Under the pieces are notes generated by a model, which was given only the letters and a program-made list of their open reading frames with translations, was not told the origin of the DNA and searched no databases. Both the position numbers and the translations under genes were made by a program. From IMG/VR virus record IMGVR_UViG_2541047695_000003: a DNA stretch of 34,489 nt; one strand, given 5' to 3'. Positions within the stretch are counted from its first letter, which is position 1; each line of letters begins with the position of its first letter. The DNA is from a virus. Lineage: Duplodnaviria > Heunggongvirae > Uroviricota > Caudoviricetes. Shown here one piece after another: positions 617-33,072 of this stretch.

Positions 617-693
617 CTGGCTTTAAAGAATAATGTAGCATTATGTTCATTATAACCTCATCTTTGTTGTGCAAACCTAACCTAAACTTACTA

Positions 694-717
694 GGGACTC
701 TTCGGAGTCCCTTTTTT
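694..717 (+). terminator. Rho-independent terminator (GGGACTC-TTCG-GAGTCCC plus TTTTTT), possibly bidirectional
   Basis: Perfect 7-bp stem with UUCG loop and T6 on + strand; A-rich on the other side; overlaps the stop codon of the minus-strand gene 716-1660. Confidence 0.5.
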
Positions 718-1660
718 ATTGGCAGTAAGAAAAGTTAGTACCGTACATTTCATCATGAAGCATTGCAACATTGCGTTTCTGTTCTTCTTCCTCGTCTACC
801 GCATCACTAGAAAAATGAGATTTGCCCTTAAAAGAACGAAGCAATTGCAGTGCAGCCATCGGATCACGCATCACATCGATTTTCACTTCTACTTCATCAT
901 TTGCGGCCTCATCAGCCGCATTTTCAACTACTGCCACCGGAGCAACTTCTTTAGCTTTCAGTTCTTCAATCTCAGCTTTCTGTGCTTCGATGATCTGGTC
1001 TTTTTCTTTCAGTGCAGCTTTCAGTTCTGCGATCTGTGCTTCCAGTGCAGAGAAACGATCTTCAACAGCAACCGGAGAAACAGCATTAACCTGTGCTTCC
1101 AGTTCTACGAAAGCGTCGCAAGATTCAATACGTGCTTTTTCTTCACCTTCATATGCAACCAGTTCTACTACTTCTTTCTCAGTAGCGTGGCTGTTAAAGA
1201 ATACAGCAAAGTAAGGATTGCCGGATTTGGTGAAGTTCAGTTTAGCTTTTCCGGTAACTTCTTTACGACGACCAAAGGTAATGTTGCAATCAGCGGTATC
1301 CTGAAAATCCATGTTAGGAGCGGAAACGATAGCAGTATCACCAGCAATCACTAGGTGGAACAGTTCAGAAGAGTTCTTAACGGTGAAAGTAACGATGTGG
1401 TCTACTGCAACGTCTTTAGCAGGTTTAACGCGGTCGATTGCTTTACGAATGCCGTTAGGCAGTTTACCGTCAACACCAAAGCCAGCCGCGATCAGTGCTT
1501 CACGATGTGCTTTAAAGCCAGCGAAAGCGGATTTCTGCTGCGCAAAGGAAACATGAGCAACAACTTTCGGCTGAATCTTCTTGTTTGCTTCGGTGCCAAA
1601 TTTGATAACTGCTTTAGCGTTGGTTACTTCGTTAGTGAAAAAGTTAGCGGAAAATAACAT
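716..1660 (-). CDS. Hypothetical early protein (314 aa): globular N-terminal region, central coiled-coil, acidic C-terminal tail
   Basis: Long ORF with diverse composition; AGGAG SD 9 nt upstream of ATG (1660); the + strand overlapping ORFs are low-complexity Phe/Ser-rich artefacts. Function not recognised. Confidence 0.75.
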   Translation of the reverse strand: MLFSANFFTNEVTNAKAVIKFGTEANKKIQPKVVAHVSFAQQKSAFAGFKAHREALIAAGFGVDGKLPNGIRKAIDRVKPAKDVAVDHIVTFTVKNSSELFHLVIAGDTAIVSAPNMDFQDTADCNITFGRRKEVTGKAKLNFTKSGNPYFAVFFNSHATEKEVVELVAYEGEEKARIESCDAFVELEAQVNAVSPVAVEDRFSALEAQIAELKAALKEKDQIIEAQKAEIEELKAKEVAPVAVVENAADEAANDEVEVKIDVMRDPMAALQLLRSFKGKSHFSSDAVDEEEEQKRNVAMLHDEMYGTNFSYCQ

Positions 1661-1704
1661 TATAAATACTCCTGTGGAAAGTTAGTTTTAATTGTTCATT
1701 TCAA

Positions 1705-1742
1705 GCCTCCTTTGCTGCAACAAGGGAGGCTTTTTCTTTTTT
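1705..1742 (+). terminator. Hairpin plus T-run (GCCTCCTTTG...CAAGGGAGGC TTTTTCTTTTTT) between two minus-strand genes
   Basis: 10-bp stem (1 mismatch) followed by T-run on the + strand; on the minus-strand RNA the same hairpin lies in the intergenic leader of gene 716-1660 and contains an AGGAGG sequence. Confidence 0.4.
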
Positions 1743-1774: not shown

Positions 1775-1954
1775 TTAACAAACTTGAACGTTAATCTTTA
1801 CCTGAATTTCGTATTTCTTCATTAGCTTGTAGAATCCGCTTCTATCAATTCCTTCCTTCTTAAAGAAGTTTTCCCCGCCTCGCTCAGTGTCGCTGTAAAA
1901 GCGTTTAGCAATATCAACAATCATTTCACGAGTGAACTTAACAGGTCTAGCCAT
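1775..1954 (-). CDS. Small HTH DNA-binding protein (59 aa, MARPVKFTREMIVDIAKRFY...GIDRSGFYKLMKKYEI), paralog family A
   Basis: ATG at 1954 (minus) with GAGGA SD 8 nt upstream (the track ORF starts at an upstream TTG, 1969). Shares the RPxxF...DIA...GI...FYKxMKK motif with 5372-5599 and the C-terminus of 5634-6239. Confidence 0.6.
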   Translation of the reverse strand: MARPVKFTREMIVDIAKRFYSDTERGGENFFKKEGIDRSGFYKLMKKYEIQVKINVQVC

Positions 1955-2053
1955 AAGTAGATTCCTCAAATGTGGATTAATAAGGACAATAAAAAGAGCT
2001 TTTCGCCCTCGATACTTCTATTTATAAAAGTCATTTCAGAAAACCCTGCAAAA

Positions 2054-2138: not shown

Positions 2139-2177
2139 GCACTGTATATCTAACCAGTGCTGTATGAATTAGCAGTG
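2139..2177. repeat. Inverted-repeat site GCACTG-N10-CAGTGC followed by a third CAGTG half-site
   Basis: GCACTGTATATCTAACCAGTGC (2139-2160), then CAGTG again at 2173-2177; direct repeat of the 2054-2075 element (CACTGT-TATCT-A-CAGTG core). Confidence 0.4.
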
Positions 2178-2296: not shown

Positions 2297-2325
2297 AGTA
2301 TAAAATAATCCTTGACAGTTGTCAA
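2297..2325 (-). promoter_or_regulatory. Candidate sigma70-type promoter reading leftward (-35 TTGACA, 17-bp spacer, -10 TATACT), overlapping palindrome TTGACAGTTGTCAA
   Basis: Minus-strand TTGACA at 2325-2320 and TATACT at 2302-2297 with exact 17-nt spacing; the perfect 14-bp palindrome 2312-2325 could also be an operator. Confidence 0.4.
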
Positions 2326-2519: not shown

Positions 2520-2770
2520 AATTGCCCCTGAAATTCTGAATTTTTGCCCCCGAATAAAATCCCCAAGATTCTACTATCCCATTTTTGCCCCTGAAACCTA
2601 CTATTTTTGCCCCTGAAATTCTGGGAAACAGTGATTTTGCCCCTCATTTTTGCCCCTGAAATGCCAATAATTGCCCCTGAAAATCTAATTTTTGCCCCTC
2701 ATTTTTGCCCCTGAAAAGGATTGGTGAGAAAAACCCTTTATAAAACATTAACTTAGCGAGGGGCAAAAGC
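2520..2770. repeat. Iteron-like array: ~9 direct copies of (T)TTTTGCCCCTGAAA (core GCCCCTGAAA / GCCCCTCA) plus one inverted copy (GAGGGGCAAAA)
   Basis: Cores at 2524, 2555 (variant GCCCCCGAAT), 2587, 2609, 2639 (GCCCCTCA), 2652, 2673, 2694 (GCCCCTCA), 2707; inverted copy 2759-2769; irregular spacing of roughly 13-32 bp; no spacer regularity, no coding potential. Confidence 0.75.
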
Positions 2771-2859
2771 GGGGGATCGGGCGTGCATAGATATTATATA
2801 ACACATTCGCTACGCTCATGTGTAAAACTAAAAACAACAAATAACCAAAAAGATAATTA

Positions 2860-2878
2860 GGAGGGCGTAGCCCGACTG
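2860..2878. repeat. Direct repeat copy 1: GGAGGGCGTAGCCCGACTG (contains GGGC-N3-GCCC mini-hairpin)
   Basis: 16/19 identical to copy at 3291-3309; the two copies bracket ~430 bp of repeat-rich non-coding DNA. Confidence 0.5.
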
Positions 2879-3055
2879 CGCGAAGCGCTAACCAATTACT
2901 TCTAGTAACAACTAATTTAAACTAGATGATACTAGATGGTCTTAGAAGGAATTAACTAGTTTGCTCGCTCGCTTCGCTCACTCTCAAACGTCTGCGACGC
3001 CACTGCGTGGCATCGAGAATCACTTCTGAAAGGATTTTCTCGAAAGGGATTTAAT

Positions 3056-3142
3056 ACTAGTTACTAACTGATTCTAGAAAGATAGTAATAATCACTTTGA
3101 AGATAATAGTAGTTAACTGGTTACTAGATGATTCTAGATCAC
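3056..3142. repeat. Tandem imperfect repeats of a TTACTA(A/G)(C/A)TGATTCTAGA-containing unit (about 60-bp period); related ACTAGATGATACTAGATGG at 2921-2940
   Basis: TTACTAACTGATTCTAGAAA (3061-3080) vs TTACTAGATGATTCTAGATC (3121-3140), 17/20 identical; each followed by CACTTT(G/A)A. Confidence 0.45.
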
Positions 3143-3167
3143 TTTAATGATCATGAAAGGTATTGGT

Positions 3168-3196
3168 ATCCCTTCGGGATTGCAACCTTCGGTTGC
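3168..3196 (+). other. Two adjacent GC-stem hairpins with TTC(G) loops (ATCCC-TTC-GGGAT; GCAACC-TTC-GGTTGC), no T-run
   Basis: Back-to-back stable stem-loops seen directly in the sequence; not followed by a U-run, so not a canonical terminator. Confidence 0.3.
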
Positions 3197-3290
3197 TAAA
3201 TTGCTTCCTGATTATTATTTCTCCAAAAGAAAGATTATTATATTCTAAAGATACTTCTTCGTTTTGATCATAATTTAATCAAATCATGAA

Positions 3291-3309
3291 GGAGGGCTTT
3301 GCCCGACTG
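3291..3309. repeat. Direct repeat copy 2: GGAGGGCTTTGCCCGACTG
   Basis: See copy 1 at 2860-2878. Confidence 0.5.
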
Positions 3310-3398
3310 AATACAATCACCTTTCATAATAACAAGAATTTTCTCTTTATAAATAATAGTGAACTTACTTGATTCACTTTCTTTTAGAGGATACCACT

Positions 3399-3848
3399 AT
3401 GATCAATACTAAAACTCCTTTCGTACTTCTGGGTCTGGACTCTGAAAACTATGGTAACTTCCATATGCTAGAAGTTTTCGCTCATCGTGGTTATAACATC
3501 ATTCGTCATTCCGAAGACTCCAACTACTCAACTGCTTTCTACGCTTTAAAACGAAATGGTCGTCCTACTGTGATCATCGACTGTTTTACTGATGAGGGTC
3601 GTCTTCAATACAACGATATTCCAGCAATTATTGTTCGTGATGATCTGCCGTTTCAAGTCCGTTCCGGTGACATTGACCTGGGTAGCTTCTTGACTCTTCG
3701 TGAACTGGATGAAGCAATGTTTAATTACGGTAAAGAAACCGCTCAGGAAGCCCCAGAACAAGATGAGGAAGACGAAGACTACGCACCAATCGCTTTCTCT
3801 TCTCACGGTGGCTTCTACGGTTACGACGAAGGCTTAGATATGCTGTAA
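3399..3848 (+). CDS. Hypothetical early protein (149 aa) with strongly acidic C-terminal tail
   Basis: ATG at 3399 (MINTKTPFVLLG...) with GAGGA SD; the track ORF starts 10 codons earlier without an RBS. C-terminus EAPEQDEEDEDYAPIAF... is acidic. Confidence 0.7.
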   Translation: MINTKTPFVLLGLDSENYGNFHMLEVFAHRGYNIIRHSEDSNYSTAFYALKRNGRPTVIIDCFTDEGRLQYNDIPAIIVRDDLPFQVRSGDIDLGSFLTLRELDEAMFNYGKETAQEAPEQDEEDEDYAPIAFSSHGGFYGYDEGLDML

Positions 3849-4389: not shown

Positions 4390-5196
4390 ATGAATACTGT
4401 TACCGTTATGAATACTGCTAAAACTGCTTCCGTGTCTCTGGTTGTTGATAACACCAAACCGCTGACCATGTCTTCCCGTCAGATCGCTGAATTTACCGGA
4501 AAGAAACACTTTCACGTAAAACGCGACATTCGCGAAATGCTGATTACCTTAGAATTAGATGAATCCAAATTTGGATGCATCTTTTTTGACCAATATGGAC
4601 GCGAGCAAACAGAATATCACTTGAATGAAGAACTGACTCTGACTCTTGTCACTGGTTACAATATCCAGATGCGAAACGCGGTTATTCAGGAATGGAAGCG
4701 ACTGAAAGAAGAAAATGAAAAACTTCGCTCTACTCCGGTTAACCCGTATGCAGACTTTGAAGAAACAGACTGGATCGAACTGGCATTAAAGAAAACTCGC
4801 GAAAATAAAAAGCTGATTGAACTTCATGTTCGCAAATCCGTAGATAGCCATTCAATGACGCGTCTGTTAGGCGCTAAAAAGGGCGCTACGAAGGTTAAAG
4901 AAGCACTGACGGCCTTACGTACTGCTGGATACATCGAGCGCGTCTATGATGAAAATAACAAGCCGTGTGGGTATGTTGCTAATGATTCTTCTCTCTCTTT
5001 CTGCCGCATGAATGCTCACTACCAACTTGAGTTTACTGTTGATGTGCTTCCGGTGCTGGTTGAATTGGGTGTTTTGGAAGAAGAACAAAAAGCAACTCTG
5101 AATCTTCCTAAGCCGAACAACACTATTCTGATTCAAAATAAAGCGGCTGAACGTCTCCGTCAGAATGTTGGATCACTGGAAGTCTTCGGACTGTAA
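4390..5196 (+). CDS. Rha-family phage regulatory protein / antirepressor-like (268 aa)
   Basis: N-terminal SRQIAEFTGKKHFHVKRDIREML matches the conserved Rha-domain signature (HxxVxRDI) as I recall it; AAGGGG SD; followed by a strong terminator. Confidence 0.75.
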   Translation: MNTVTVMNTAKTASVSLVVDNTKPLTMSSRQIAEFTGKKHFHVKRDIREMLITLELDESKFGCIFFDQYGREQTEYHLNEELTLTLVTGYNIQMRNAVIQEWKRLKEENEKLRSTPVNPYADFEETDWIELALKKTRENKKLIELHVRKSVDSHSMTRLLGAKKGATKVKEALTALRTAGYIERVYDENNKPCGYVANDSSLSFCRMNAHYQLEFTVDVLPVLVELGVLEEEQKATLNLPKPNNTILIQNKAAERLRQNVGSLEVFGL

Positions 5197-5371: not shown

Positions 5372-5599
5372 TCAAAAACCTGTTGCTTCTACGATCTGAC
5401 CATCACCGATCTGAACATAGAATTTAATGTCTAACTTCTTCATATTCTTATAGAATTGGGCAATTGAAATCCCATGTTCACTAAGAATCTGTTCTTTCGC
5501 TTCCTTACCACGATCCGCTGTATAATAAGCGTAGGCAATATCAGCCATTTGTTCAGCGTTAAAACGGGCAGGACGACCGCGAGTAGCTTTAGTAGTCAT
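5372..5599 (-). CDS. Small HTH DNA-binding protein (75 aa, MTTKATRGRPARFNAEQMADIAYAY...GISIAQFYKNMKKL), paralog family A; resembles terminase-small-subunit / AlpA-type N-terminal HTH
   Basis: Second in-frame ATG (5599) has GGAGAA SD at 6-nt spacing; the first ATG (5605) abuts the SD. GRP-x-RF...DIA...GIS..FYK.MKK motif shared with 1775-1954. Confidence 0.6.
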   Translation of the reverse strand: MTTKATRGRPARFNAEQMADIAYAYYTADRGKEAKEQILSEHGISIAQFYKNMKKLDIKFYVQIGDGQIVEATGF

Positions 5600-5633
5600 A
5601 GTCATTTCTCCAAATTAAAGTGAATGTTCACTT

Positions 5634-6239
5634 TTATTTAGAGGACTTACATTTTATCGGAAAAAGTTCTCCATCGTCAATACTCATAAAGAACTCTGCC
5701 TTAATCCCGTACTTCTTCAACCGTGAATAGTATGTACCCCGACTTATATCAACCTTGCGCAGCACTTCAAAGAACCCTTTAGGATCGTTGTAATAGTGGC
5801 TGTATCGCACGTTAGCGAGTTCTACAAACAATTCCCTTGTATCACCATAGCCTTTCTTGAAAGCCTCGTTACGATAGCGTGTAATAGCGTGATTCAATCT
5901 CTTCTGTTTCAACACTTCTCGGATCGGCTTCCACTGCAACCTATAGATAGGACCGTCATCAATGCGATAATAACGCTTGATATCAAAATCAAACCAATCT
6001 CGGACTCGCTGAAACTCTGTCTGTGAGGTGCGATACTTCTTAAAGAAGTTATGAATATCGGTATACCCATGATCACGATACAACTCGATTAAAATCTGTT
6101 TAGCTTCCTCACGACTAAAGCCAGATGTTGTGTAATCAGTCTTCTTGTGATGGTGCTTAACTGGCAAACGATATTCATGATCGGTACAACAAGAAAAGGC
6201 TAATTCTACTTCATCTCTTTGTTGCTGATTAATTAGCAT
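5634..6239 (-). CDS. Hypothetical protein (201 aa) with C-terminal HTH-like segment ([16 protein letters not shown]) related to paralog family A
   Basis: AGGGGG SD 5 nt upstream of ATG 6239; divergent from the terminase gene; function unknown. Confidence 0.7.
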
Positions 6240-6326: not shown

Positions 6327-8234
6327 ATGAAACTAATTTCTAATAAGGCCAAATTAAAAAAGATTCTCAGAAATGCAGCCAAATATATTACGCCACCGCC
6401 TAAACTCCTTCCATCGGAATGGTGCGAAGCTAATATGGTGCTGGTAGATGGTCCTCAAGCTGGGGATAAAGTTAAATTGCTGTCATTCCAGAAAGGTATG
6501 ATTGATGCTCCTTTCCTTGAGAACAAGAAAAAGTATGTTCTGATGACCAGTGCGCAGATCGGAAAGACTACCATCCTGAACGGCATCCTGTTTAACCAGA
6601 TGGCTAACGATCCATGCAATATGATTATCGGACAATCAACCGCTAAAGAAATGTCTCAATATCTCGCTGGTAAGATCCGACCGTCTATCGAAGCATGTGA
6701 TGCATTAAAAGACGTGGTTACAGACAAGAATGATCGCAATGCGGTTAACAACAATAACCAACTCCAGCTAAAAACGAATCACTTCCTGTACATGGTATCG
6801 CTTACCAGTCCATCAACCCTGCGCGGTAAGACTGCAAAGGTCGGACTACTAGACGAAATCGATGCTGCTACAGCCTCAGAAGAAGGTGATCCGGTGGCAC
6901 TGGCTGCTAACCGTTTAACTACCTTTGGCGATGAAGGCCGATTAGTCGTATCCAGTACCCCGACCAGTAAGCTCGGAAGCATTAACCAGCAATGGTTATC
7001 AAGCGATATGCGTATGTTTTTTGTTCCGTGTCCTCATTGCGGGGAACACCAGGTGATCGAGTGGGAAAACGTTCAATTTGAATGGCGTAACATCGATGGT
7101 AAGAACTTACCCGATCCTGATACCGCTCGTTATATTTGCCCCCACTGTAAGAACGCATGGACAGAAGGGGAACGAATCAGGGCAGTAGCGCAAGGCGAGT
7201 GGAGAGCAACCCGTGAAAGTGAAGTAGCAGGATTCTGGATTAGCCGTCTGTATTCACCTTTCAGCACGATCCGCGCTTGTGTGGTTGATTTTAGTCATGC
7301 GTGGCAATCCTTTGATTTACAATCATTTTATAACACCGTGTTAGGCAAGGTATACGATGATCAGGACACGGCAGTAGAAGCAAATGAACTGGAACAACTC
7401 AAAACAGATGTTTCTATCGAGAATATCCCTGATGACGTGATTTTCTTGTGCTCAGGAATTGACCAGCAATTGGATCGCGCAGAATCTACCATCTTAGGTG
7501 TAGCGAAAGATAAGGTTTACATTCTGGATCACCGTAGCTTTTACGATCATAACTGTGAACGATACGAATCACCTGTATGGGATCGTCTGGTTAACTTCAA
7601 GAAAACCAAATTCTATAACGTTAATGGTGAACGTGTGCCAATGCTCGCCAGCTTCCTCGATACATCAAACGGTCGATTCACTCAAGCCGGATACCGTATT
7701 TGTGGTAAGTGGAAGAACCTACACGCTATTAAAGGTAGTTCATCTGGTAATGCTCCAGTGATTCCGGTTAAACCTACCCGCACAGGTGGTCATGAATTGC
7801 TTATGCTGGGCGTTAACGTTGGTAAATCCGCTGTTCGTGAAATGCTGGTTAGAAACCTGAAAGATAATCCTCATATTGGCTTAGAAATATCAGAAACCGT
7901 TCCTGATGATTATCTCGATCAGCTTTTGAGTGAATCCATCAAGCGTACTACTACTGGTGTTCGTTGGGTGAAAAATCCAGGTAGTACCCGAAACGAGGCT
8001 CTCGACTGTCTGGTTTATAGCTATGCTGCTTCTCGCTACGTCCTTTCAAAAATGTCATGGGATAAACTCATTGCAATGAAAGACAGCTTAAACAGCGTTA
8101 AAGAAGAACCCGTAAAAGCTCCTGAATCGCAATCTGACGAGCAAATCGAAGAAACTAAGCCAATCACACGACCGCAACGTCAAAACATCGCCAGACGCCC
8201 AAATAGAGGCCGTAGCTGGGTAACATCGTTCTAA
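6327..8234 (+). CDS. Terminase large subunit, lambda gpA family (635 aa)
   Basis: By recall of lambda gpA: matching N-terminal EW-x-ANxxL...FQ segment, Walker-A-like SAQIGKT, CPHCGE...YICPHC zinc-ribbon-like pair, and C-terminal RNEALDC(L/F)VY motif; GAGGG SD; first gene of the long rightward structural operon. Confidence 0.9.
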
Positions 8235-10371: not shown

Positions 10372-12372
10372 ATGCTTAAATTTCGCCGCGATCTTAACGG
10401 TTACGGTGGAGTTATTAACGAAGGGCATAACGATCAATACGAATTTGAAATTGCTTTCTCCAGTGAACAGCCGTATCAGCGCCAATTCTGGGATGAGCAA
10501 AATCAAGAGATGGTGGTACTAGATGAAATTCTGGTACATACACCGGAAGCGGTTGATCTGTCTCGTCTGAATAATAACGCTCCGTTGCTGTTCAATCATA
10601 ATTTCGATAATCATTTAGGTGTAGTCTGCGACGCTCGAATCGATGCGGATAACGTAGGTCGTGCTCTGGTTAAATTCTCTAAGCATGGCACTTTGGCTAA
10701 TGATATTCGCAATAAAGTCATTGAAGGTACGATGGAAAAAATTTCTGTCGGCTATGACATTAAAGAATATCACATCGATTACGCCAAAGGGCAATTGATT
10801 GTTACTAAGTGGGCGCCCTATGAACTCTCATTTGTCACCGTTCCTGCTGACGATACGGTCGGTTTAAATCGCTCTCTAAATACTATCACAGTTAATTTGG
10901 AGGCTAAACGCGATATGACTAAAGAACAAATTGAAGAAATCAAAGAAGAACAAGAATCCGCTCAGGTTGAAGAAACTCCGGTAGAAGAAATTAAAGAATC
11001 GGAAGTTGAAGAAACTCAAGAGCGCCAAGTTGAAGAGAATAAAGAAGATGAAAATCTCGAAGACGGAAAAGACGCTGAACATCCTGAAAGTGTTGATGAT
11101 GATAGTTCAACTGTTCGGGAAGAAGAAATAAAAGAAGAACGTGAAGCTGCTCCGGTTGAAGAAGAAAAAATCGAAGAAGTGGCTGAACGTTCCGAAGAAG
11201 ACGAATTAGAAATTCGCGAAATTGCACGCGAACTAAATATTGATGACGAAGAATTGAAACGCGCATTGGCAATTAAAGACATGACGCCGGAAGCATTCCG
11301 CACTAAGGCACTAAATAATCTCGTCAATGCTCAACGTAATAACGAACAAATTAAGGACTCTAAAATGGAAAAAACTTTTGACCTGAACAACGTAATTCGC
11401 TCTCTGGTAGATGGTGCTGCTCTGGGTGCTAACGAAGCTGAATATTCCTCTATGGCTGCTGGTGCTGCGATGCAGCGTGGTCGTGCTGCTCGTGGTGGCT
11501 CTGTATTCGTTCCGGCTGCTGCTCTGCGTGCTGCTGCTGATGGTAACACCAAAACTACTCTGACCGCTGTAACTGACGAAAAACTGATGACTGAATCCTA
11601 CATCGAAATGCTGATGCCGGAATCTGTTCTGGGTCGTCTGGGTGTGACTGTTTACAGTGGCTTGAACTCCCCGACCGCTATTCCAAAAATGACCGCTTCC
11701 AGCGTTGACGCTTTCGGCTTCGTTGATGAAAACGGTGCTGCACCGGAAAGCAAAGCTGAATTTGCGAACGTGAAACTGTCTCCGAAAACTTTTGCTGGTG
11801 GCAACCCGATCAGCCGTCAGTCGCTGAAAACCGTTCCGGGCATCGCTACCCTGATCACTGATCACATTAACAAAGCTGTTCGTATCAAACTGGAACAACT
11901 GATTCTGTCTGATAAAGAAAATGCTCGTGGTCCGGCTGGTCTGGTTAAGCAACTGGTAGACGCTAGCCGCGTTACCAAGAAAGCTGCTTTCTCTTATAAA
12001 GACTTCCTGAAAGAAATTGCAGCACTGACCGACGCTGGCGTTCCTGCTCAGGCGATCAAGTTTGCAATGAGCGGTGCAACTGCTGCTGAACTGGAATCTA
12101 CCCTGAAAGATAACGGCGTTTCCGGTTATATCATCGAAAACGGCAAACTGGCTGGTTACGAAGTAGTTACTTCTGGCGTTATCCCGGCAGACCACATCGT
12201 TCTGGGTGACTTCTCCGGTATTACTATCGGTGAGTGGGGAGGTCTGGAACTCGACATGGATCTAACTACATATAGGGATCGTGGTGCGGTAGTGCCTCGT
12301 ATCTTTGTAGATTTGGACTACGTTGTAGCACAGCCGGAAGCCCTGAAAGTTCTTCACATCTCCGCTGAATGA
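10372..12372 (+). CDS. Fused prohead protease (HK97-type, S78-like) - acidic scaffold-like linker - major capsid protein (666 aa)
   Basis: N-terminal ~180 aa carry His (LFNHNFDNHLGVV) and Ser (EKISVGYDIKEY) motifs typical of HK97-family prohead proteases; residues ~190-330 are Glu-rich and coiled-coil-like; C-terminal ~330 aa have capsid-like composition (MEKTFDLNNVIRSL...AAGAAMQRGRAARGG...). Strong terminator follows. Confidence 0.85.
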   Translation: MLKFRRDLNGYGGVINEGHNDQYEFEIAFSSEQPYQRQFWDEQNQEMVVLDEILVHTPEAVDLSRLNNNAPLLFNHNFDNHLGVVCDARIDADNVGRALVKFSKHGTLANDIRNKVIEGTMEKISVGYDIKEYHIDYAKGQLIVTKWAPYELSFVTVPADDTVGLNRSLNTITVNLEAKRDMTKEQIEEIKEEQESAQVEETPVEEIKESEVEETQERQVEENKEDENLEDGKDAEHPESVDDDSSTVREEEIKEEREAAPVEEEKIEEVAERSEEDELEIREIARELNIDDEELKRALAIKDMTPEAFRTKALNNLVNAQRNNEQIKDSKMEKTFDLNNVIRSLVDGAALGANEAEYSSMAAGAAMQRGRAARGGSVFVPAAALRAAADGNTKTTLTAVTDEKLMTESYIEMLMPESVLGRLGVTVYSGLNSPTAIPKMTASSVDAFGFVDENGAAPESKAEFANVKLSPKTFAGGNPISRQSLKTVPGIATLITDHINKAVRIKLEQLILSDKENARGPAGLVKQLVDASRVTKKAAFSYKDFLKEIAALTDAGVPAQAIKFAMSGATAAELESTLKDNGVSGYIIENGKLAGYEVVTSGVIPADHIVLGDFSGITIGEWGGLELDMDLTTYRDRGAVVPRIFVDLDYVVAQPEALKVLHISAE

Positions 12373-30271: not shown

Positions 30272-31270
30272 ATGAATACTACTTTAGCAAAGGATATCGA
30301 ATTTACCGCAAAAAGCAAACGTGCGACCCCTCCGGTCGAATATGAAACCAGAATCATTAAAGTTTGTCAAGTGCATGGATGGTTATACAGTGGTTTTGTG
30401 CTTCCTGTAAAGAAACCATTCCAGAACACCAAAGTTTGCATAGAAGTTAACGGAAAGGTTAAAACGCCATGTATTAGTCATGTTCTAACTGGTCAGTTTA
30501 CTGGCAAAGATAGAGTATCACCGCCTAAGAAGAAGTTTAGATTTACCGAAGAAGAACACTTAGAAAACGCTCGCAAGTTCTACAAGCCGATAGGGTGGGA
30601 TGTGTTAGGTCTGGCTGAACCTTATCAGGGTGTTGACACTAAACTAATTCTTCGTTGTAAGTGCCACGGAAAGATTCACAAGAAAGGTGATTTACACAAT
30701 AACCGCAGACAAGGCGGGTTAACATGCCCTTTGGTTAGGGGTGTACTTAAATCAATTCAGAATGGTAGAAAACAGGTTATCAGAAACAAGTTTGCACAGC
30801 GCCCTATGCACTTTTATCTAATTCGTGTTGGCGAGAAGTTTTTCAAATATGGAATTACCACTCGCAAAGATCCGATGCAACGGGTAAGAGAACACCAGAA
30901 GCACACCAGCGAGAAAATCACCTTTGAATGCTCACATTTGTTTAACATTGGATGGAAAGCTGGTGATTTAGAAATGGGGATTAAAAAGAATATTCAGGGC
31001 AAGAAAATCCCACGTAAGGTAATGAATAGCGGATTCACAGAAACGCTACCGATTAGCAAGCTGAAAGATGTTAAATCATTCATCAATGAATACATCCACA
31101 CCAACCCATCTAAGCCAATGTATTTTGATGATACCAACGCAATCAATCTGAACAACTACATTAGTGATGAAGACATAGAACGAGATTTATCGCAGTGGAT
31201 GAATGCACCGTTAGCTGATTTAACACCGGAAGACTTAGAACTCGATTTAAGCCCTTTAGAGGCTCTTTAA
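30272..31270 (+). CDS. T5orf172 / GIY-YIG-like domain protein with N-terminal Cys/His-rich region (332 aa)
   Basis: HFYLIRVGEKFFKYGITTRKDPMQRVREH matches the T5orf172 (MUG113) signature of the GIY-YIG superfamily as I recall it; N-terminal CQVHGW...C...CKCHGKIHKKGD suggests a zinc-binding module; GAGGA SD. Confidence 0.7.
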   Translation: MNTTLAKDIEFTAKSKRATPPVEYETRIIKVCQVHGWLYSGFVLPVKKPFQNTKVCIEVNGKVKTPCISHVLTGQFTGKDRVSPPKKKFRFTEEEHLENARKFYKPIGWDVLGLAEPYQGVDTKLILRCKCHGKIHKKGDLHNNRRQGGLTCPLVRGVLKSIQNGRKQVIRNKFAQRPMHFYLIRVGEKFFKYGITTRKDPMQRVREHQKHTSEKITFECSHLFNIGWKAGDLEMGIKKNIQGKKIPRKVMNSGFTETLPISKLKDVKSFINEYIHTNPSKPMYFDDTNAINLNNYISDEDIERDLSQWMNAPLADLTPEDLELDLSPLEAL

Positions 31271-31343: not shown

Positions 31344-33023
31344 TTAAATTCCAAATTCCTGTAATGGACCTGGTATTTCCTCTTCTGGTTTCCAGTTCTT
31401 ATCTGTCAGCATGTCTAAACATGGATGCAGAACAAGCCCGTTGCTCTCCAGAATCTGCCTATCATTGATAGTTTTCAAATCAATGAATATCCGGCCTTTC
31501 CTCGTTCCTCTTGAATTTTCTATTACAACTCTCTGGGTCTTTCCATCGATGTATTCCAGCACAAACAAGTTTTTATTTCTGTCAATCCTGCTACACCCGA
31601 TCCGCTTTAGAGCTTGCTTAATCTTAAACCGGACCTTTAGTCGTTCCTCGTTATAAACATCTTCTAAATCAAATTCTGCGAGCTTCTCCCAGCCTTGAGA
31701 GTCCACAGAATACATTTCCTCTTCTGCCATCTTGATCTGATTGTAGAGTGTTTCACGCTCGCTATTGAGGGTAGTAATCTGATCGGCTAGCTCCTTCGTT
31801 GCTCCTGTCATAGCAGAAAGGGCAATCAGGTTATCAATCTTGCGTGATATTTCATCAACCTGTACTTTCAACGCCGGAACCGGATTAGCCTTGTCCTCAG
31901 CAATCCATATTTTATCAGCCAGCAATTGCAATACAGCTTTCTCTAATTGATCACCTCGAAAACTCCAGTTTGGATGCTCGCAATCAAGTCTACGTGAACG
32001 GGTCGCATCACATGTATAACGATACTGGTCAGAACGTTTGTTCGTTCCCTTCACTTTAACCATAGCGCAACCGCAATGATCACATTTCAATAGGCCAATA
32101 CCACTAAGCAGGGGGATCGGTTTAACTTCTTCCTTGTCTCCAAAGTTCCATGCTCTAGCACCAATATTTTTCTTAAGGTGATAGAACGTAGCATCATCAA
32201 TAACACGAGGGTAATAATCCTTTAACTCATAGTTAACACCATCTACAGAGACTTCCTTGATACCAATCAAAGCGCGGGTATGGAACAACCTTTCAACCAT
32301 TGCCCGTGACCATTTTGAATGCTTCTTGTTGCTTACTGCTGGTGGCGGTGTATATGTCTCGTTAAGGTGATCCAGTATCTCGGCGGTTGAACGTCCATTC
32401 TTCCGTAATTCCACAATCTCCTGAACAACAGGGAAGTATGTAGGATGAGGCAACACATAACCGGAAGTGGTATCCGTCCACCACATATTCTTTCCAACTT
32501 CCTCGATTGCCACTGCCGGATTCTGGGGATTTTCTTGATGGGCTTTAATCTTAATCAGTGCGCTTGAGTTAGTACGATTGCGCTTAGTCTGGCTTTCCTC
32601 ATTACCACGGATGAATAAAAGGATGGAGAACATCAGGTCCATCGGGTTAGCGGTAACAGTATCCAGCGAGTAGATCTTGTTATCCATGCCAGTAACAATG
32701 GTTATTCCCCTACGGATGATTGAAAGGAATAACTCCTGCGCACTGACAATATCGGCACGGGATAAGCGGTCCAAGTTTTCAATGAATAGCCAGCTACCAA
32801 CAGGAACGGATCTACCAATTGCATCAAGGAAACGAGATAGCGCCCCTGTTTTAGAGTTAGCACCCTTAAACGCAGATACACCCAGATCCTGATAATCATT
32901 TACCAGTTCAAGGTCATACTTTGCCGCAACCTCTCTCGCCATCCTGATTTGTCGTTCATAACTCGAACCATCATTCTGACGCATAGACGAGAAGCGAATA
33001 TACGAATACAGTTTAGTTTTCAT
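31344..33023 (-). CDS. Large serine recombinase (serine integrase, 559 aa)
   Basis: N-terminus MKTKLYSYIRFSS...Q with catalytic-Ser resolvase-type domain, then a recombinase domain, Cys cluster (CDHCGC...C-x-A...CEH) and C-terminal coiled-coil, the architecture of phiC31/Bxb1-type integrases. Start taken at ATG 33023 rather than the upstream TTG 33038 of the track. Confidence 0.9.
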   Translation of the reverse strand: MKTKLYSYIRFSSMRQNDGSSYERQIRMAREVAAKYDLELVNDYQDLGVSAFKGANSKTGALSRFLDAIGRSVPVGSWLFIENLDRLSRADIVSAQELFLSIIRRGITIVTGMDNKIYSLDTVTANPMDLMFSILLFIRGNEESQTKRNRTNSSALIKIKAHQENPQNPAVAIEEVGKNMWWTDTTSGYVLPHPTYFPVVQEIVELRKNGRSTAEILDHLNETYTPPPAVSNKKHSKWSRAMVERLFHTRALIGIKEVSVDGVNYELKDYYPRVIDDATFYHLKKNIGARAWNFGDKEEVKPIPLLSGIGLLKCDHCGCAMVKVKGTNKRSDQYRYTCDATRSRRLDCEHPNWSFRGDQLEKAVLQLLADKIWIAEDKANPVPALKVQVDEISRKIDNLIALSAMTGATKELADQITTLNSERETLYNQIKMAEEEMYSVDSQGWEKLAEFDLEDVYNEERLKVRFKIKQALKRIGCSRIDRNKNLFVLEYIDGKTQRVVIENSRGTRKGRIFIDLKTINDRQILESNGLVLHPCLDMLTDKNWKPEEEIPGPLQEFGI

Positions 33024-33030
33024 ACCATTT

Positions 33031-33072
33031 CCAAACAAAAACGCCCCTACCGCGTATTATAACGATAGGGGC
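33031..33072 (-). terminator. Hairpin GCCCCTA...TAGGGGC followed by U-rich tract on minus strand
   Basis: 7-bp stem with 16-nt loop; minus-strand downstream GTTTTTGTTTGG; sits between 33087-33506 and the recombinase start and overlaps the alternative TTG start. Confidence 0.4.

What the first reader, a model, noticed from the sequence alone, without database searches (positions are those of the whole stretch)
716..1660. Unrecognised 314-aa early protein with coiled-coil and acidic tail
This is the largest gene of the leftward early unit. It has a ~190-aa globular N-terminal region, a 40-50-aa heptad-like coiled-coil (ALEAQIAELKAALKEKDQIIEAQKAEIEELKAKE) and an acidic C-terminus, and matches no family I can name. 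Early-expressed proteins with this build are often recombination mediators or host-takeover/anti-defence factors.
Basis: inference. Interest (0 to 1): 0.45.

Follow-up and report, generated by a model that had tools for sequence, protein, structure and literature searches.

The report
Abundant orphan early prophage protein
This is a real, conserved gene of an E. coli prophage with no recognisable relatives or fold; its codon usage matches the phage's major tail protein, so it is probably made in bulk, but its function is still only a guess.

Summary
The ORF at 716-1660 (minus strand, 314 aa) is real and built as described: a basic beta-rich head (aa 1-160, pI 9.75), a ~40-aa coiled coil (196-237) and an acidic tail. 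The window is a ~35-kb serine-integrase prophage inserted in E. coli ycdX. Nothing beyond coiled-coil noise matched in Pfam, PHROGs, NCBIfam, PADLOC or PDB sequences. Among 1.84 billion representatives only two diverged full-length relatives exist. AlphaFold models were weak (pLDDT 55-61) and matched no fold.

New findings:
- It has the strongest E. coli codon adaptation in the prophage (0.63), equal to the tail-tube gene, and this survives a composition control.
- It is under purifying selection (omega ~0.17).
- It is the second gene of a two-gene leftward operon, behind a small HTH gene, a near-consensus promoter and a conserved LexA-like box.
- In sister prophages the same slot holds an unrelated basic head on a homologous acidic tail with a shared aromatic tip. 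That gene too has the top codon adaptation in its locus.
- Head type reassorts freely with the neighbouring regulatory alleles.

Best guess (~0.3): a stoichiometric nucleic-acid-binding early protein with SSB-like logic, but not an SSB homologue. Function is not established. Interest is moderate.

The parts
716..1660 (-). CDS of the 314-aa orphan protein (head type A); the stop codon is 716-718
   Evidence: ORF. It is 100% identical to a gene of E. coli PD23. dN/dS is 0.17. CAI is 0.63, the highest of 37 ORFs, and 0.589 without Glu/Lys against a median of 0.28.
1181..1660 (-). Basic beta-rich head, aa 1-160 (pI 9.75, net +8); the N-terminus MLFSANFF.N is invariant in all relatives
1076..1180 (-). 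Acidic helical linker, aa 161-195 (aa 161-200: net -8)
950..1075 (-). Coiled-coil helix, aa 196-237, flanked by P/V/A-rich 'PVAV' linkers
   Evidence: A single long helix in AlphaFold2; heptad register; only coiled-coil noise in Pfam/PHROGs. It is 100% conserved between the window and PEC41.
719..949 (-). Acidic C-terminal tail, aa 238-314 (net -10). This module is exchangeable: an alternative 'WNKYL' module replaces it in PEC41, P0123 and P0127.
728..766 (-). Tail tip motif AMLHDEMYGTNFS (aa 299-311), shared with the unrelated head-B protein of DEC5A (MALHDAIYDTNYS)
   Evidence: Local alignment of the two tails: z = 7.0, with 0 of 2000 shuffles reaching the score. The heads give z = 0.19.
1669..1673 (-). 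Shine-Dalgarno AGGAG; the sequence CAGGAGTATTTATAATG is conserved in L003 and DEC5A
1703..1732 (.). Conserved GC-rich hairpin between the small HTH gene and the target. It has a T-run only on the + strand, so it would stop antisense transcription rather than the operon's own transcript.
   Evidence: Conserved in L003, PEC41 and DEC5A. Used as an anchor to collect 12 slot variants.
1775..1969 (-). Small HTH-like ORF, first gene of the operon (59 aa from the ATG at 1954 as RefSeq annotates it; 64 aa from the TTG at 1969). Its alleles are highly variable.
   Evidence: 47% identity between the window and PEC41 while the flanks are 97%. It is present upstream of every relative.
2140..2159 (.). Best LexA-box-like site in the whole window (CACTGTATATCTAACCAGTG); weaker ones lie at 2158-2177 and 2055-2074
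   Evidence: PWM score 20.1, against a median of 20.8 for the real sites used. It is the top hit at the same position in GN4741, PEC41 and DEC5A. Three CTGT-N9-CAG sites cluster here.
2297..2325 (-). Near-consensus sigma-70 promoter for the leftward operon (TTGACA-17-TATACT), whose -35 lies in the palindrome TTGACAACTGTCAA. A weaker candidate promoter lies at 2130-2103, between the LexA-like boxes.
   Evidence: L003 has TTGACA-17-TATAAT with TTGACATGAGTCAA. Identical in PEC41.
693..712 (.). Hairpin just 3' of the stop codon (a second lies at 591-608). Both are T-tailed on the + strand, so they shield the gene from convergent rightward transcription.

Best explanation
The gene encodes an abundant early protein of a temperate E. 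coli siphophage.

Shown:
- It is a real gene under purifying selection.
- Its codon adaptation equals that of the major tail protein.
- It is the second gene of a two-gene leftward operon, behind a small HTH gene. The operon has a near-consensus promoter and a conserved LexA-like operator.
- The protein is bipartite: a basic beta-rich head, then an acidic stalk containing a ~40-aa coiled coil, then an acidic tail with a conserved aromatic tip.
- In sister prophages an unrelated basic head sits on a homologous tail in the same slot, with equally extreme codon adaptation.

Inferred:
- After SOS induction the operon is derepressed and the protein accumulates to stoichiometric amounts.
- The coiled coil makes it a dimer or higher oligomer.
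- The basic heads coat nucleic acid, most plausibly ssDNA or replication/recombination intermediates of the phage.
- The acidic tail folds back on the head when no DNA is bound, and its aromatic tip recruits a constant partner from the host or the phage.

This is the working logic of SSB, T4 gp32 and T7 gp2.5. It would supply a replication/recombination accessory function in a phage that has no recognisable replication or recombination gene. It works like an SSB or annealing protein but is not a detectable member of those families.
For: - Abundance: CAI 0.63 is the top of 37 ORFs, equal to the tail tube (0.625) and above the capsid gene (0.50).
- The bias survives removal of Glu/Lys codons: 0.589 against a median of 0.28. 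CTG is 69% of Leu (median 20%) and CAG is 82% of Gln (median 40%).
- Synonymous divergence from L003 is much lower than for neighbouring genes: dS about 1.0-1.2 against 2.7-2.9 or saturated.
- The slot gene has the top CAI in every enterobacterial variant: 0.66, 0.72, and 0.70 for the unrelated head B.
- Charge dipole in both head types: head pI 9.75/9.80, C-terminal half pI 4.37/4.12.
- The tail and its aromatic tip are conserved across unrelated heads (z = 7.0).
- Non-orthologous head replacement in one slot (7 type A, 5 type B). From general knowledge, this pattern is typical of phage SSB and annealing-protein modules.
- Free reassortment of head type with regulatory alleles points to a generic rather than specificity-matched function.
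- A LexA-like box is conserved in four E. coli variants, together with a strong promoter.
- The prophage has no recognisable replication or recombination gene.
Against: - No sequence or profile similarity to SSB, gp2.5, RecT, Erf or Rad52 families. Pfam at E <= 10 lists only coiled-coil noise. hhalign probability is 0.08% against the E. coli SSB OB domain and 0.06% against T7 gp2.5.
- A central coiled coil is not a feature of known SSBs or annealing proteins.
- No exonuclease or other recombination partner gene lies adjacent.
- Nucleic-acid binding is inferred from charge alone.
- High expression is inferred from codon usage, not measured.
- The LexA-like box is not found in the more distant L003.
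Confidence: 0.3

Rival explanations
1. Abundant anti-defence or host-takeover factor. The long acidic stalk and tail would act as a DNA mimic or decoy (in the manner of Ocr or ArdA), or the head would bind a host protein. The protein would be made in bulk at the start of lytic growth to neutralise a host system.
For: It is early, strongly expressed and orphan. The C-terminal half is strongly acidic (net -20 to -32). The slot shows head turnover between unrelated families, as anti-defence hotspots do. The family is extremely narrow.
Against: Both unrelated heads are equally basic (pI 9.8), which fits nucleic-acid binding better than recognition of different protein targets. There is no PADLOC or other hit. 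Within E. coli the head is 97-100% conserved with omega 0.17, so there is no sign of an arms race. Known DNA mimics are acidic throughout and have no basic domain (general knowledge).
Confidence: 0.15
2. SOS-controlled anti-repressor or other regulator (Ant/Tum-like). On DNA damage it would be made and would titrate the prophage repressor to trigger induction.
For: A LexA-like box lies upstream of the operon. The head-coiled coil-C module layout resembles Ant/Rha/ORF6N proteins. One database protein (P0129) joins an ORF6N anti-repressor domain to this family's coiled coil and C module.
Against: Head type does not co-vary with any candidate immunity or regulator allele. Codon adaptation at the level of the tail tube is unexpected for a regulator. 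P0129 comes from one 1.5-kb metagenome contig. Its first 368 nt are Firmicute-like: 66% identical to Lactococcus phage Ant proteins, with a different RBS and different codon usage. The rest is 96-97% identical to this prophage, so it is probably an assembly chimera. There is no similarity to Ant, Tum, KilA-N, Bro-N or Rha families.
Confidence: 0.1
3. Replication initiator or origin-binding protein acting on the nearby iteron array (2521-2767).
For: Ten copies of TTTGCCCCT lie within 250 bp at 11/21/22-nt spacing, close to the operon. The same core repeat is present in L003 and PEC41. L003 has three perfect DnaA boxes just upstream of its homologue. No other initiator candidate is recognisable in the prophage. 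The size (314 aa) is typical of Rep proteins.
Against: Initiators are normally scarce and poorly codon-adapted, whereas this gene is the best adapted in the phage. The predicted head is beta-rich, not winged-helix. There is no Rep_3 or lambda-O-type hit. An unrelated head B is used with the same iterons, so head and iteron do not co-vary. DnaA boxes are not enriched in the window.
Confidence: 0.1
4. Lysogen-expressed exclusion or defence protein, occupying the position that rexA holds behind cI in lambda. It would be co-transcribed with a small repressor and protect the host from other phages.
For: It lies directly downstream of a variable small HTH gene in a leftward unit divergent from the rightward early genes. 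It is close to the prophage end. It is insulated by hairpins on both sides.
Confidence: 0.1
5. Virion or assembly protein encoded outside the late operon, such as a scaffold-like, decoration or internal/ejected protein. This would explain codon adaptation equal to the major structural genes.
For: CAI equals that of the tail tube and exceeds that of the capsid. There are weak PHROG hits of the coiled-coil region to scaffold-like segments of head protease and major head families (E = 0.02 and 0.006).
Against: The gene is in an early-type sigma-70/LexA-controlled unit, on the opposite strand and about 5 kb from the late genes. The 666-aa capsid gene is a protease-plus-major-head fusion, so it already carries its own scaffold-type segment. 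The weak hits cover only the coiled coil.
Confidence: 0.07

Closest known systems
Single-stranded DNA-binding proteins with acidic C-terminal tails (E. coli SSB, T7 gp2.5, T4 gp32)
   Same: Made in bulk. A basic nucleic-acid-binding body is followed by a flexible linker and an acidic tail ending in aromatic residues that recruit partners. They oligomerise. In phages they are early genes, and unrelated versions often replace one another. E. coli ssb is itself SOS-linked (general knowledge).
   Different: There is no sequence or profile similarity and no OB fold was recovered. The target has a central coiled coil and a ~160-aa head with a different predicted topology. DNA binding has not been shown.
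Phage single-strand annealing proteins (Redbeta/RecT, Erf, Sak; the Rad52-like superfamily)
   Same: A conserved N-terminal DNA-binding body with an exchangeable C-terminal partner-binding module. Non-orthologous replacement at a fixed genome position among related temperate phages. Early expression.
Phage anti-repressors of the Ant/ORF6N/Rha/Bro-N type
   Same: A modular head, a short coiled coil and a variable C-terminal domain. Size is about 230-300 aa. Some are LexA-controlled. A Rha-type protein with this layout lies in the same prophage (4390-5196).
   Different: The head is unrelated to any of these domains. Codon adaptation is extreme. There is no co-variation with regulatory alleles. 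The one apparent hybrid (P0129) is probably an assembly artefact.
The head-B slot protein of related prophages (e.g. E. coli O55:H7 DEC5A, WP_000798183.1, 333 aa)
   Same: Same slot, same upstream hairpin and RBS, same charge layout, a coiled coil, a homologous acidic tail and tip, and the top codon adaptation of its prophage.
   Different: The head has no detectable similarity (Smith-Waterman z = 0.19; hhalign probability 0.5%). It is followed by an extra 80-aa coiled-coil ORF that the window lacks. It is also uncharacterised.

Membership tests
OB-fold SSB family (Pfam PF00436) | Sequence or profile match to the SSB OB domain | tested here: not met
   No Pfam hit at E <= 10.
OB-fold SSB family (Pfam PF00436) | Five-stranded OB barrel | tested here: inconclusive
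OB-fold SSB family (Pfam PF00436) | Acidic C-terminal tail with an aromatic or hydrophobic tip | tested here: met
   aa 238-314 are net -10. The tip ...LHDEMYGTNFSYCQ is conserved across unrelated heads. This is a resemblance of layout only.
OB-fold SSB family (Pfam PF00436) | Binds ssDNA | not testable with these tools
   Needs purified protein and a gel-shift or fluorescence assay.
T7 gp2.5-like SSB/annealing proteins (Pfam PF10991) | Sequence or profile match to gp2.5 | tested here: not met
   No Pfam hit. hhalign against T7 gp2.5 (taken from NC_001604) gives probability 0.06%.
Rad52-like annealing proteins (RecT/Redbeta PF03837, Erf PF04404, Rad52 PF04098) | Profile match, or a beta-beta-beta-alpha Rad52-type core | tested here: not met
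Rad52-like annealing proteins | Adjacent partner gene (exonuclease or SSB) | tested here: not met
   The neighbours are a 59/64-aa HTH ORF upstream and non-coding DNA downstream. The only nuclease-like ORF (30272-31270) lies about 29 kb away in the prophage map.
Ant/ORF6N/KilA-N/Bro-N/Rha anti-repressors | One of these N-terminal domains | tested here: not met
   There is no such hit for the target, whereas the neighbouring Rha protein and P0129 hit strongly with the same tools.
Ant/ORF6N/KilA-N/Bro-N/Rha anti-repressors | Specificity matched to a cognate repressor (co-variation with the immunity allele) | tested here: not met
   Head A and head B reassort freely with the small-HTH, orf159/orf111 and Rha/HTH277 alleles across 31 loci.
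Iteron-type replication initiators (Rep_3, lambda O) | Winged-helix DNA-binding domains or a profile match | tested here: not met
   No Pfam or NCBIfam hit. The predicted head is beta-rich.
Iteron-type replication initiators (Rep_3, lambda O) | Protein co-varies with its iterons | tested here: not met
   Prophages with the unrelated head B share near-identical flanking sequence (the upstream hairpin, RBS and small-HTH allele). PEC41, which has head A, keeps the same iterons as the window. The iteron core is the same in L003 although its head is only 54% identical.
Known anti-phage defence or exclusion proteins (PADLOC set; lambda RexA) | Profile match, or a RexA/RdgC-like fold | tested here: not met
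Phage head scaffolding proteins | Encoded in the head module and needed because the capsid gene lacks its own scaffold segment | tested here: not met
   The gene lies in the early region on the opposite strand. The capsid ORF 10372-12372 is a protease-plus-major-head fusion (phrog_617 E = 2e-94; phrog_4523 E = 9e-41).

The most novel reading that the evidence does not exclude
The slot encodes a previously unrecognised class of bulk early phage proteins. Interchangeable, unrelated basic heads of new fold are mounted on a common acidic coiled-coil stalk, whose conserved aromatic tip docks on a host or phage partner. The proteins would be switched on by the SOS response and would serve as the DNA-coating or recombination factor (or as a DNA-mimic decoy) for a temperate phage lineage that has no recognisable replication or recombination genes.
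Probability: 0.25. Interest if true: 0.65.

Novelty: new variant of a known kind. Interest (0 to 1): 0.5.

Why it matters
The protein is one of the two best codon-adapted genes of a prophage lineage found in about 1% of complete E. coli genomes (49 of 5,426 carry the portal gene), including Shigella sonnei and O55:H7 strains. Even so, it has no name, no family and no recognisable fold.

If it is a new kind of DNA-coating or annealing protein, it would extend the small list of such protein types. It would also help explain how a 35-kb phage without recognisable replication or recombination genes multiplies. The shared tail tip on two unrelated heads gives a simple handle, a short peptide bait, for finding the partner it recruits. 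The host is E. coli, so every proposed test is easy to run.

If it turns out to be an ordinary regulator or a virion component, the finding is of local interest only.

Tried and rejected
- **Profile libraries.** Pfam, PHROGs, NCBIfam and PADLOC gave only coiled-coil noise.
- **PDB sequence searches.** Neither the single sequence nor the head profile found anything.
- **tblastn against 50,697 phage records.** No match for head A or head B.
- **Deep homologue searches.** All returned the same closed family. A search with the tail alone found only fragments of the same gene.
- **SSB hairpin lead.** By eye, both heads seemed to end in an SSB-like beta4-beta5 hairpin motif. hhalign rejected this.
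- **ORF6N 'head swap' (P0129).** Rejected as evidence. It is a single 1.5-kb metagenome contig with a Firmicute-like 5' part joined to DNA of this prophage.
- **PK5074 partial match.** This is an IS3-disrupted remnant, not a domain swap.
- **Polymorphic toxin/immunity reading.** The idea was a variable C-terminal module with a cognate small downstream ORF. It was rejected because the small ORF type does not follow the tail type. DEC5A has the acidic tail and L003 has the WNKYL module, yet both carry homologous '...LRIVA' ORFs. The modules are also tiny and acidic.
- **DnaA boxes.** Three perfect boxes occur in L003, but there is no enrichment in the window.
- **CAI as a composition artefact.** A Glu/Lys-rich protein in an AT-rich genome could score high without selection. 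This was tested and rejected.
- **Literature.** Searches for the prophage and for accessions found nothing relevant.
Full report
**What the window is**

The 34.5-kb window is almost the whole of a ~35-kb prophage inserted into the E. coli gene ycdX, between ghrA and ycdY.
- It has a large serine recombinase at the right end (31344-33038, minus strand).
- It has a lambda-gpA-type large terminase, a portal, a protease-plus-major-head fusion, a 1174-aa fibre, a tail-tube gene and a tape measure.
- A small terminase gene lies just left of the window (phrog_57 in the DEC5A copy).
- No sequenced phage is close. The best portal identity is 36%.
- About 49 of 5,426 complete E. coli genomes carry the portal gene. 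37 carry a detectable copy of the target gene, 32 of them full-length.
- The window's copy of the gene is 100% identical to that of strain PD23.

**The observation**

The ORF at 716-1660 on the minus strand is there exactly as described: 314 aa, with an ATG start and an AGGAG ribosome-binding site.
- AlphaFold2 predicts a beta-rich core (strands between residues 2 and 156, with two helices at 45-81), helices at 161-193, one long helix at 196-237, and a poorly ordered rest.
- Residues 1-160 are basic (pI 9.75, net +8). Residues 161-314 are acidic (pI 4.37, net -20). A heptad register fits the long helix.
- The gene is not a chance ORF. Hundreds of variants exist in E. coli and Shigella.
- dN/dS is 0.17 for the head among E. 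coli alleles.
- Full-length relatives at 50% (P0123) and 35% identity (P0127) conserve 41 head positions, including the first ten residues.

**No family, no fold**
- Pfam, PHROGs, NCBIfam and PADLOC give only coiled-coil noise.
- PDB sequence searches with the protein and with a head profile give nothing.
- tblastn against 50,697 phage records gives no match.
- An exhaustive HMMER pass over 1.84 billion representative proteins finds 11 hits. Only two of them are diverged full-length relatives.
- The fold is therefore unresolved. The models are too poor to claim a new fold.

**Genomic setting**

The gene is the second of two genes in a leftward unit.
- The first gene is a 59/64-aa HTH-like ORF (1775-1954/1969), present upstream of every relative.
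- The unit is driven by a near-consensus promoter (TTGACA-17-TATACT, 2325-2297) whose -35 sits in a palindrome. Both features recur in L003 and PEC41.
- The best LexA-box-like site of the entire window lies between that promoter and the small ORF (2140-2159, score 20.1, against a median of 20.8 for the real sites used). Two weaker sites lie nearby.
- The same position is the top-scoring site in three other E. coli variants, with central substitutions that keep the CTG...CAG arms. The box is not seen in the more distant L003.
- A conserved hairpin (1703-1732) and two hairpins 3' of the gene (693-712, 591-608) carry T-runs on the plus strand only. They would block antisense or convergent transcription rather than the operon's own transcript.
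- Further upstream lies an array of ten TTTGCCCCT repeats (2521-2767) at 11/21/22-nt spacing.

**Abundance**

Glu and Lys codons could inflate this figure in an AT-rich genome, so I recomputed without them.
- The value is 0.589, tied with the tail tube (0.593), against a median of 0.28.
- CTG makes up 69% of Leu codons (median 20%).
- CAG makes up 82% of Gln codons (median 40%).
- Synonymous divergence from L003 is also far lower than in neighbouring genes.

These results point to selection for very high expression, at the level of the main virion proteins. Expression itself was not measured.

**The slot, not just the protein**

In E. coli O55:H7 DEC5A and five viral contigs, the related prophage (there inserted in hicB) carries a 333-aa ORF in exactly the same place, behind the same hairpin and ribosome-binding site.
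- Its head has no similarity to the target's (Smith-Waterman z = 0.19; hhalign 0.5%).
- The build is nevertheless the same: head pI 9.80, a P/V/A-rich linker, a coiled coil, and a C-terminal half of pI 4.12.
- Its tail is homologous (z = 7.0; 0 of 2000 shuffles), with the shared tip ...(A)LHD..Y.TN(F/Y)S....
- It is also an orphan.
- It also has the best codon adaptation of its prophage (0.70, against 0.64 for the tail tube). The head-A genes of PEC41 (0.66) and L003 (0.72) are likewise the top of their loci.

Anchoring on the hairpin recovered seven head-A and five head-B loci and no third type.

Within head A there are two tail alleles. One is the acidic tail of the window. The other is a 'WNKYL' module in PEC41, P0123 and P0127.

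Across 31 loci, head type reassorts freely with the alleles of the small HTH ORF, of orf159/orf111 and of Rha/HTH277.

**Interpretation**

The facts to be explained are these:
- bulk expression;
- early and probably SOS-linked control;
- two unrelated but equally basic heads;
- a common acidic, oligomerising stalk with a conserved aromatic tip;
- no pairing with regulatory alleles;
- a phage with no recognisable replication or recombination gene.

The reading that fits most of them is a stoichiometric nucleic-acid-binding protein that works like SSB, gp32 or gp2.5. The basic body would coat DNA. The acidic tail would self-inhibit and recruit a partner through its tip. I put this at about 0.3.

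It is a statement about how the protein may work, not about membership. Sequence and profile tests against SSB and gp2.5 failed. No OB or Rad52-like fold was recovered. The central coiled coil has no counterpart in those families. DNA binding is inferred from charge only.

**Rivals**

| Rival | Weight | Main argument against |
|---|---|---|
| Anti-defence decoy | 0.15 | Both heads are basic, and the head is conserved with omega 0.17 |
| Anti-repressor | 0.10 | No co-variation with regulatory alleles; extreme codon adaptation; its best support (P0129) is probably a chimeric contig |
| Iteron-binding initiator | 0.10 | High codon adaptation; beta-rich head; an unrelated head is used with the same iterons |
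| Lysogen-expressed exclusion | 0.10 | The LexA-like box predicts repression in the lysogen; no defence-family hit |
| Virion or assembly protein | 0.07 | Early-type unit on the opposite strand; the capsid gene is a protease-plus-head fusion with its own scaffold-type segment |

The remaining probability is for something not considered here.

**Verdict**

The protein family is new in sequence and unresolved in fold. On the best current reading, its kind of function is a variant of a known kind. Interest is moderate (0.5). It is a tractable, widespread and evidently important orphan in E. coli prophages, with a clear set of cheap experiments, but there is no demonstrated mechanism yet.

Noticed in passing
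window 2521-2767: An iteron-like array: nine direct copies and one inverted copy of TTTGCCCCT (longer form TTTTTGCCCCTGAAA), spaced 11, 21 or 22 nt apart. There are no other exact copies in the 34 kb. The same core repeat is present in L003 (6872-7135) and PEC41. It could be a replication origin, a packaging or terminase site, or an operator array. The binding protein is unknown.
   Followed up: partly
window 2140-2159, 2158-2177, 2055-2074: A cluster of LexA-box-like palindromes in the leader of the leftward operon. The best one (CACTGTATATCTAACCAGTG) is the top-scoring site of the window and is conserved in GN4741, PEC41 and DEC5A. This suggests direct SOS control of an early operon in a phage with no recognisable CI-type repressor. 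The matrix was built from memory-typed sites.
   Followed up: partly
window 2855-3315: A non-coding stretch bracketed by a 20-nt direct repeat (2859-2878 and 3290-3309), rich in GC hairpins including two TTCG-loop hairpins. It folds far better than shuffles on both strands (z = -5.1 and -4.4). There is no Rfam match. It may be a structured RNA, for example an RNA-based origin or regulator, or a dense set of palindromic protein sites.
   Followed up: partly
window 3209-3283: A 75-nt segment 84% identical to unannotated DNA in 54 T4-like (RB49/Krischvirus-type) phage records. It is not a tRNA (ARAGORN finds none) and has no Rfam hit.
   Followed up: no
window 1775-1969 (-), 5372-5605 (-), 5634-6239 (-): Three paralogous HTH-like modules sharing the motif (A/G)RP.(K/R)F...FYK.MKK..I: two small ORFs and the C-terminus of a 201-aa ORF. 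All are on the minus strand and none has a family hit. The first varies sharply between prophage variants (47-100% identity) while its flanks stay about 97% identical.
   Followed up: partly
L003 7692-7700, 7712-7720, 7851-7859: Three perfect DnaA boxes (TTATCCACA) within 170 bp, between the small HTH ORF and the head-A gene of the sister prophage. This segment is absent from the window, where DnaA boxes are not enriched.
   Followed up: yes
L005 1-1549 (protein P0129): A database protein joining an ORF6N anti-repressor domain to this family's coiled coil and WNKYL module. The first 368 nt are Firmicute-like (66% to Lactococcus phage Ant proteins, with a different RBS and different codons). 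The rest is 96-97% identical to this prophage. It is probably a chimeric metagenome contig.
   Followed up: yes
window 3369-3848 (+): The first rightward early ORF (159 aa, an orphan) also ends in an acidic, aromatic tail (...EEDEDYAPIAFSSHGGFYGYDEGLDML). It has high codon adaptation (0.47-0.50 here, 0.60 in L003), and its alleles are highly variable (43-100% identity).
   Followed up: no
L001 19442-19993; L008 2192-2746; window 6327-8234: The small terminase gene lies at the left prophage end. It is separated from the lambda-gpA-type large terminase by about 6-7 kb that holds the whole early and regulatory region. This is an unusual layout for a gpA/Nu1-type packaging system.
   Followed up: no
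L001/L006 (ycdX) versus L007/L008 (hicB): The same prophage lineage is found inserted in two different host genes, ycdX and hicB. The serine recombinase variants presumably differ in target site. PK5074 carries an IS1/IS3-riddled remnant at hicB.
   Followed up: no
L008 3447-3689 (-); L003 8930-9163 (+); L006 4361-4702 (+): A small coiled-coil ORF (77-113 aa, ending ...LR(I/L)VA) follows the slot gene in DEC5A, L003 and PEC41 but is missing from the window, where only a 13-codon remnant-like ORF is seen. Several slot-protein variants end in -AA (...VRKAA, ...AYAYAA). That recalls ClpX C-terminal degrons, a resemblance from memory that was not tested.
   Followed up: no
window 2921-2937, 3056-3078, 3116-3139: Repeated ACTAG.TACTA..GATTCTAGA / TTCTAGAA-type palindromic elements in the non-coding region. 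Similar TTCTAGAA-rich repeats occur in L003 6520-6760. They may be operators for an unidentified regulator.
   Followed up: no
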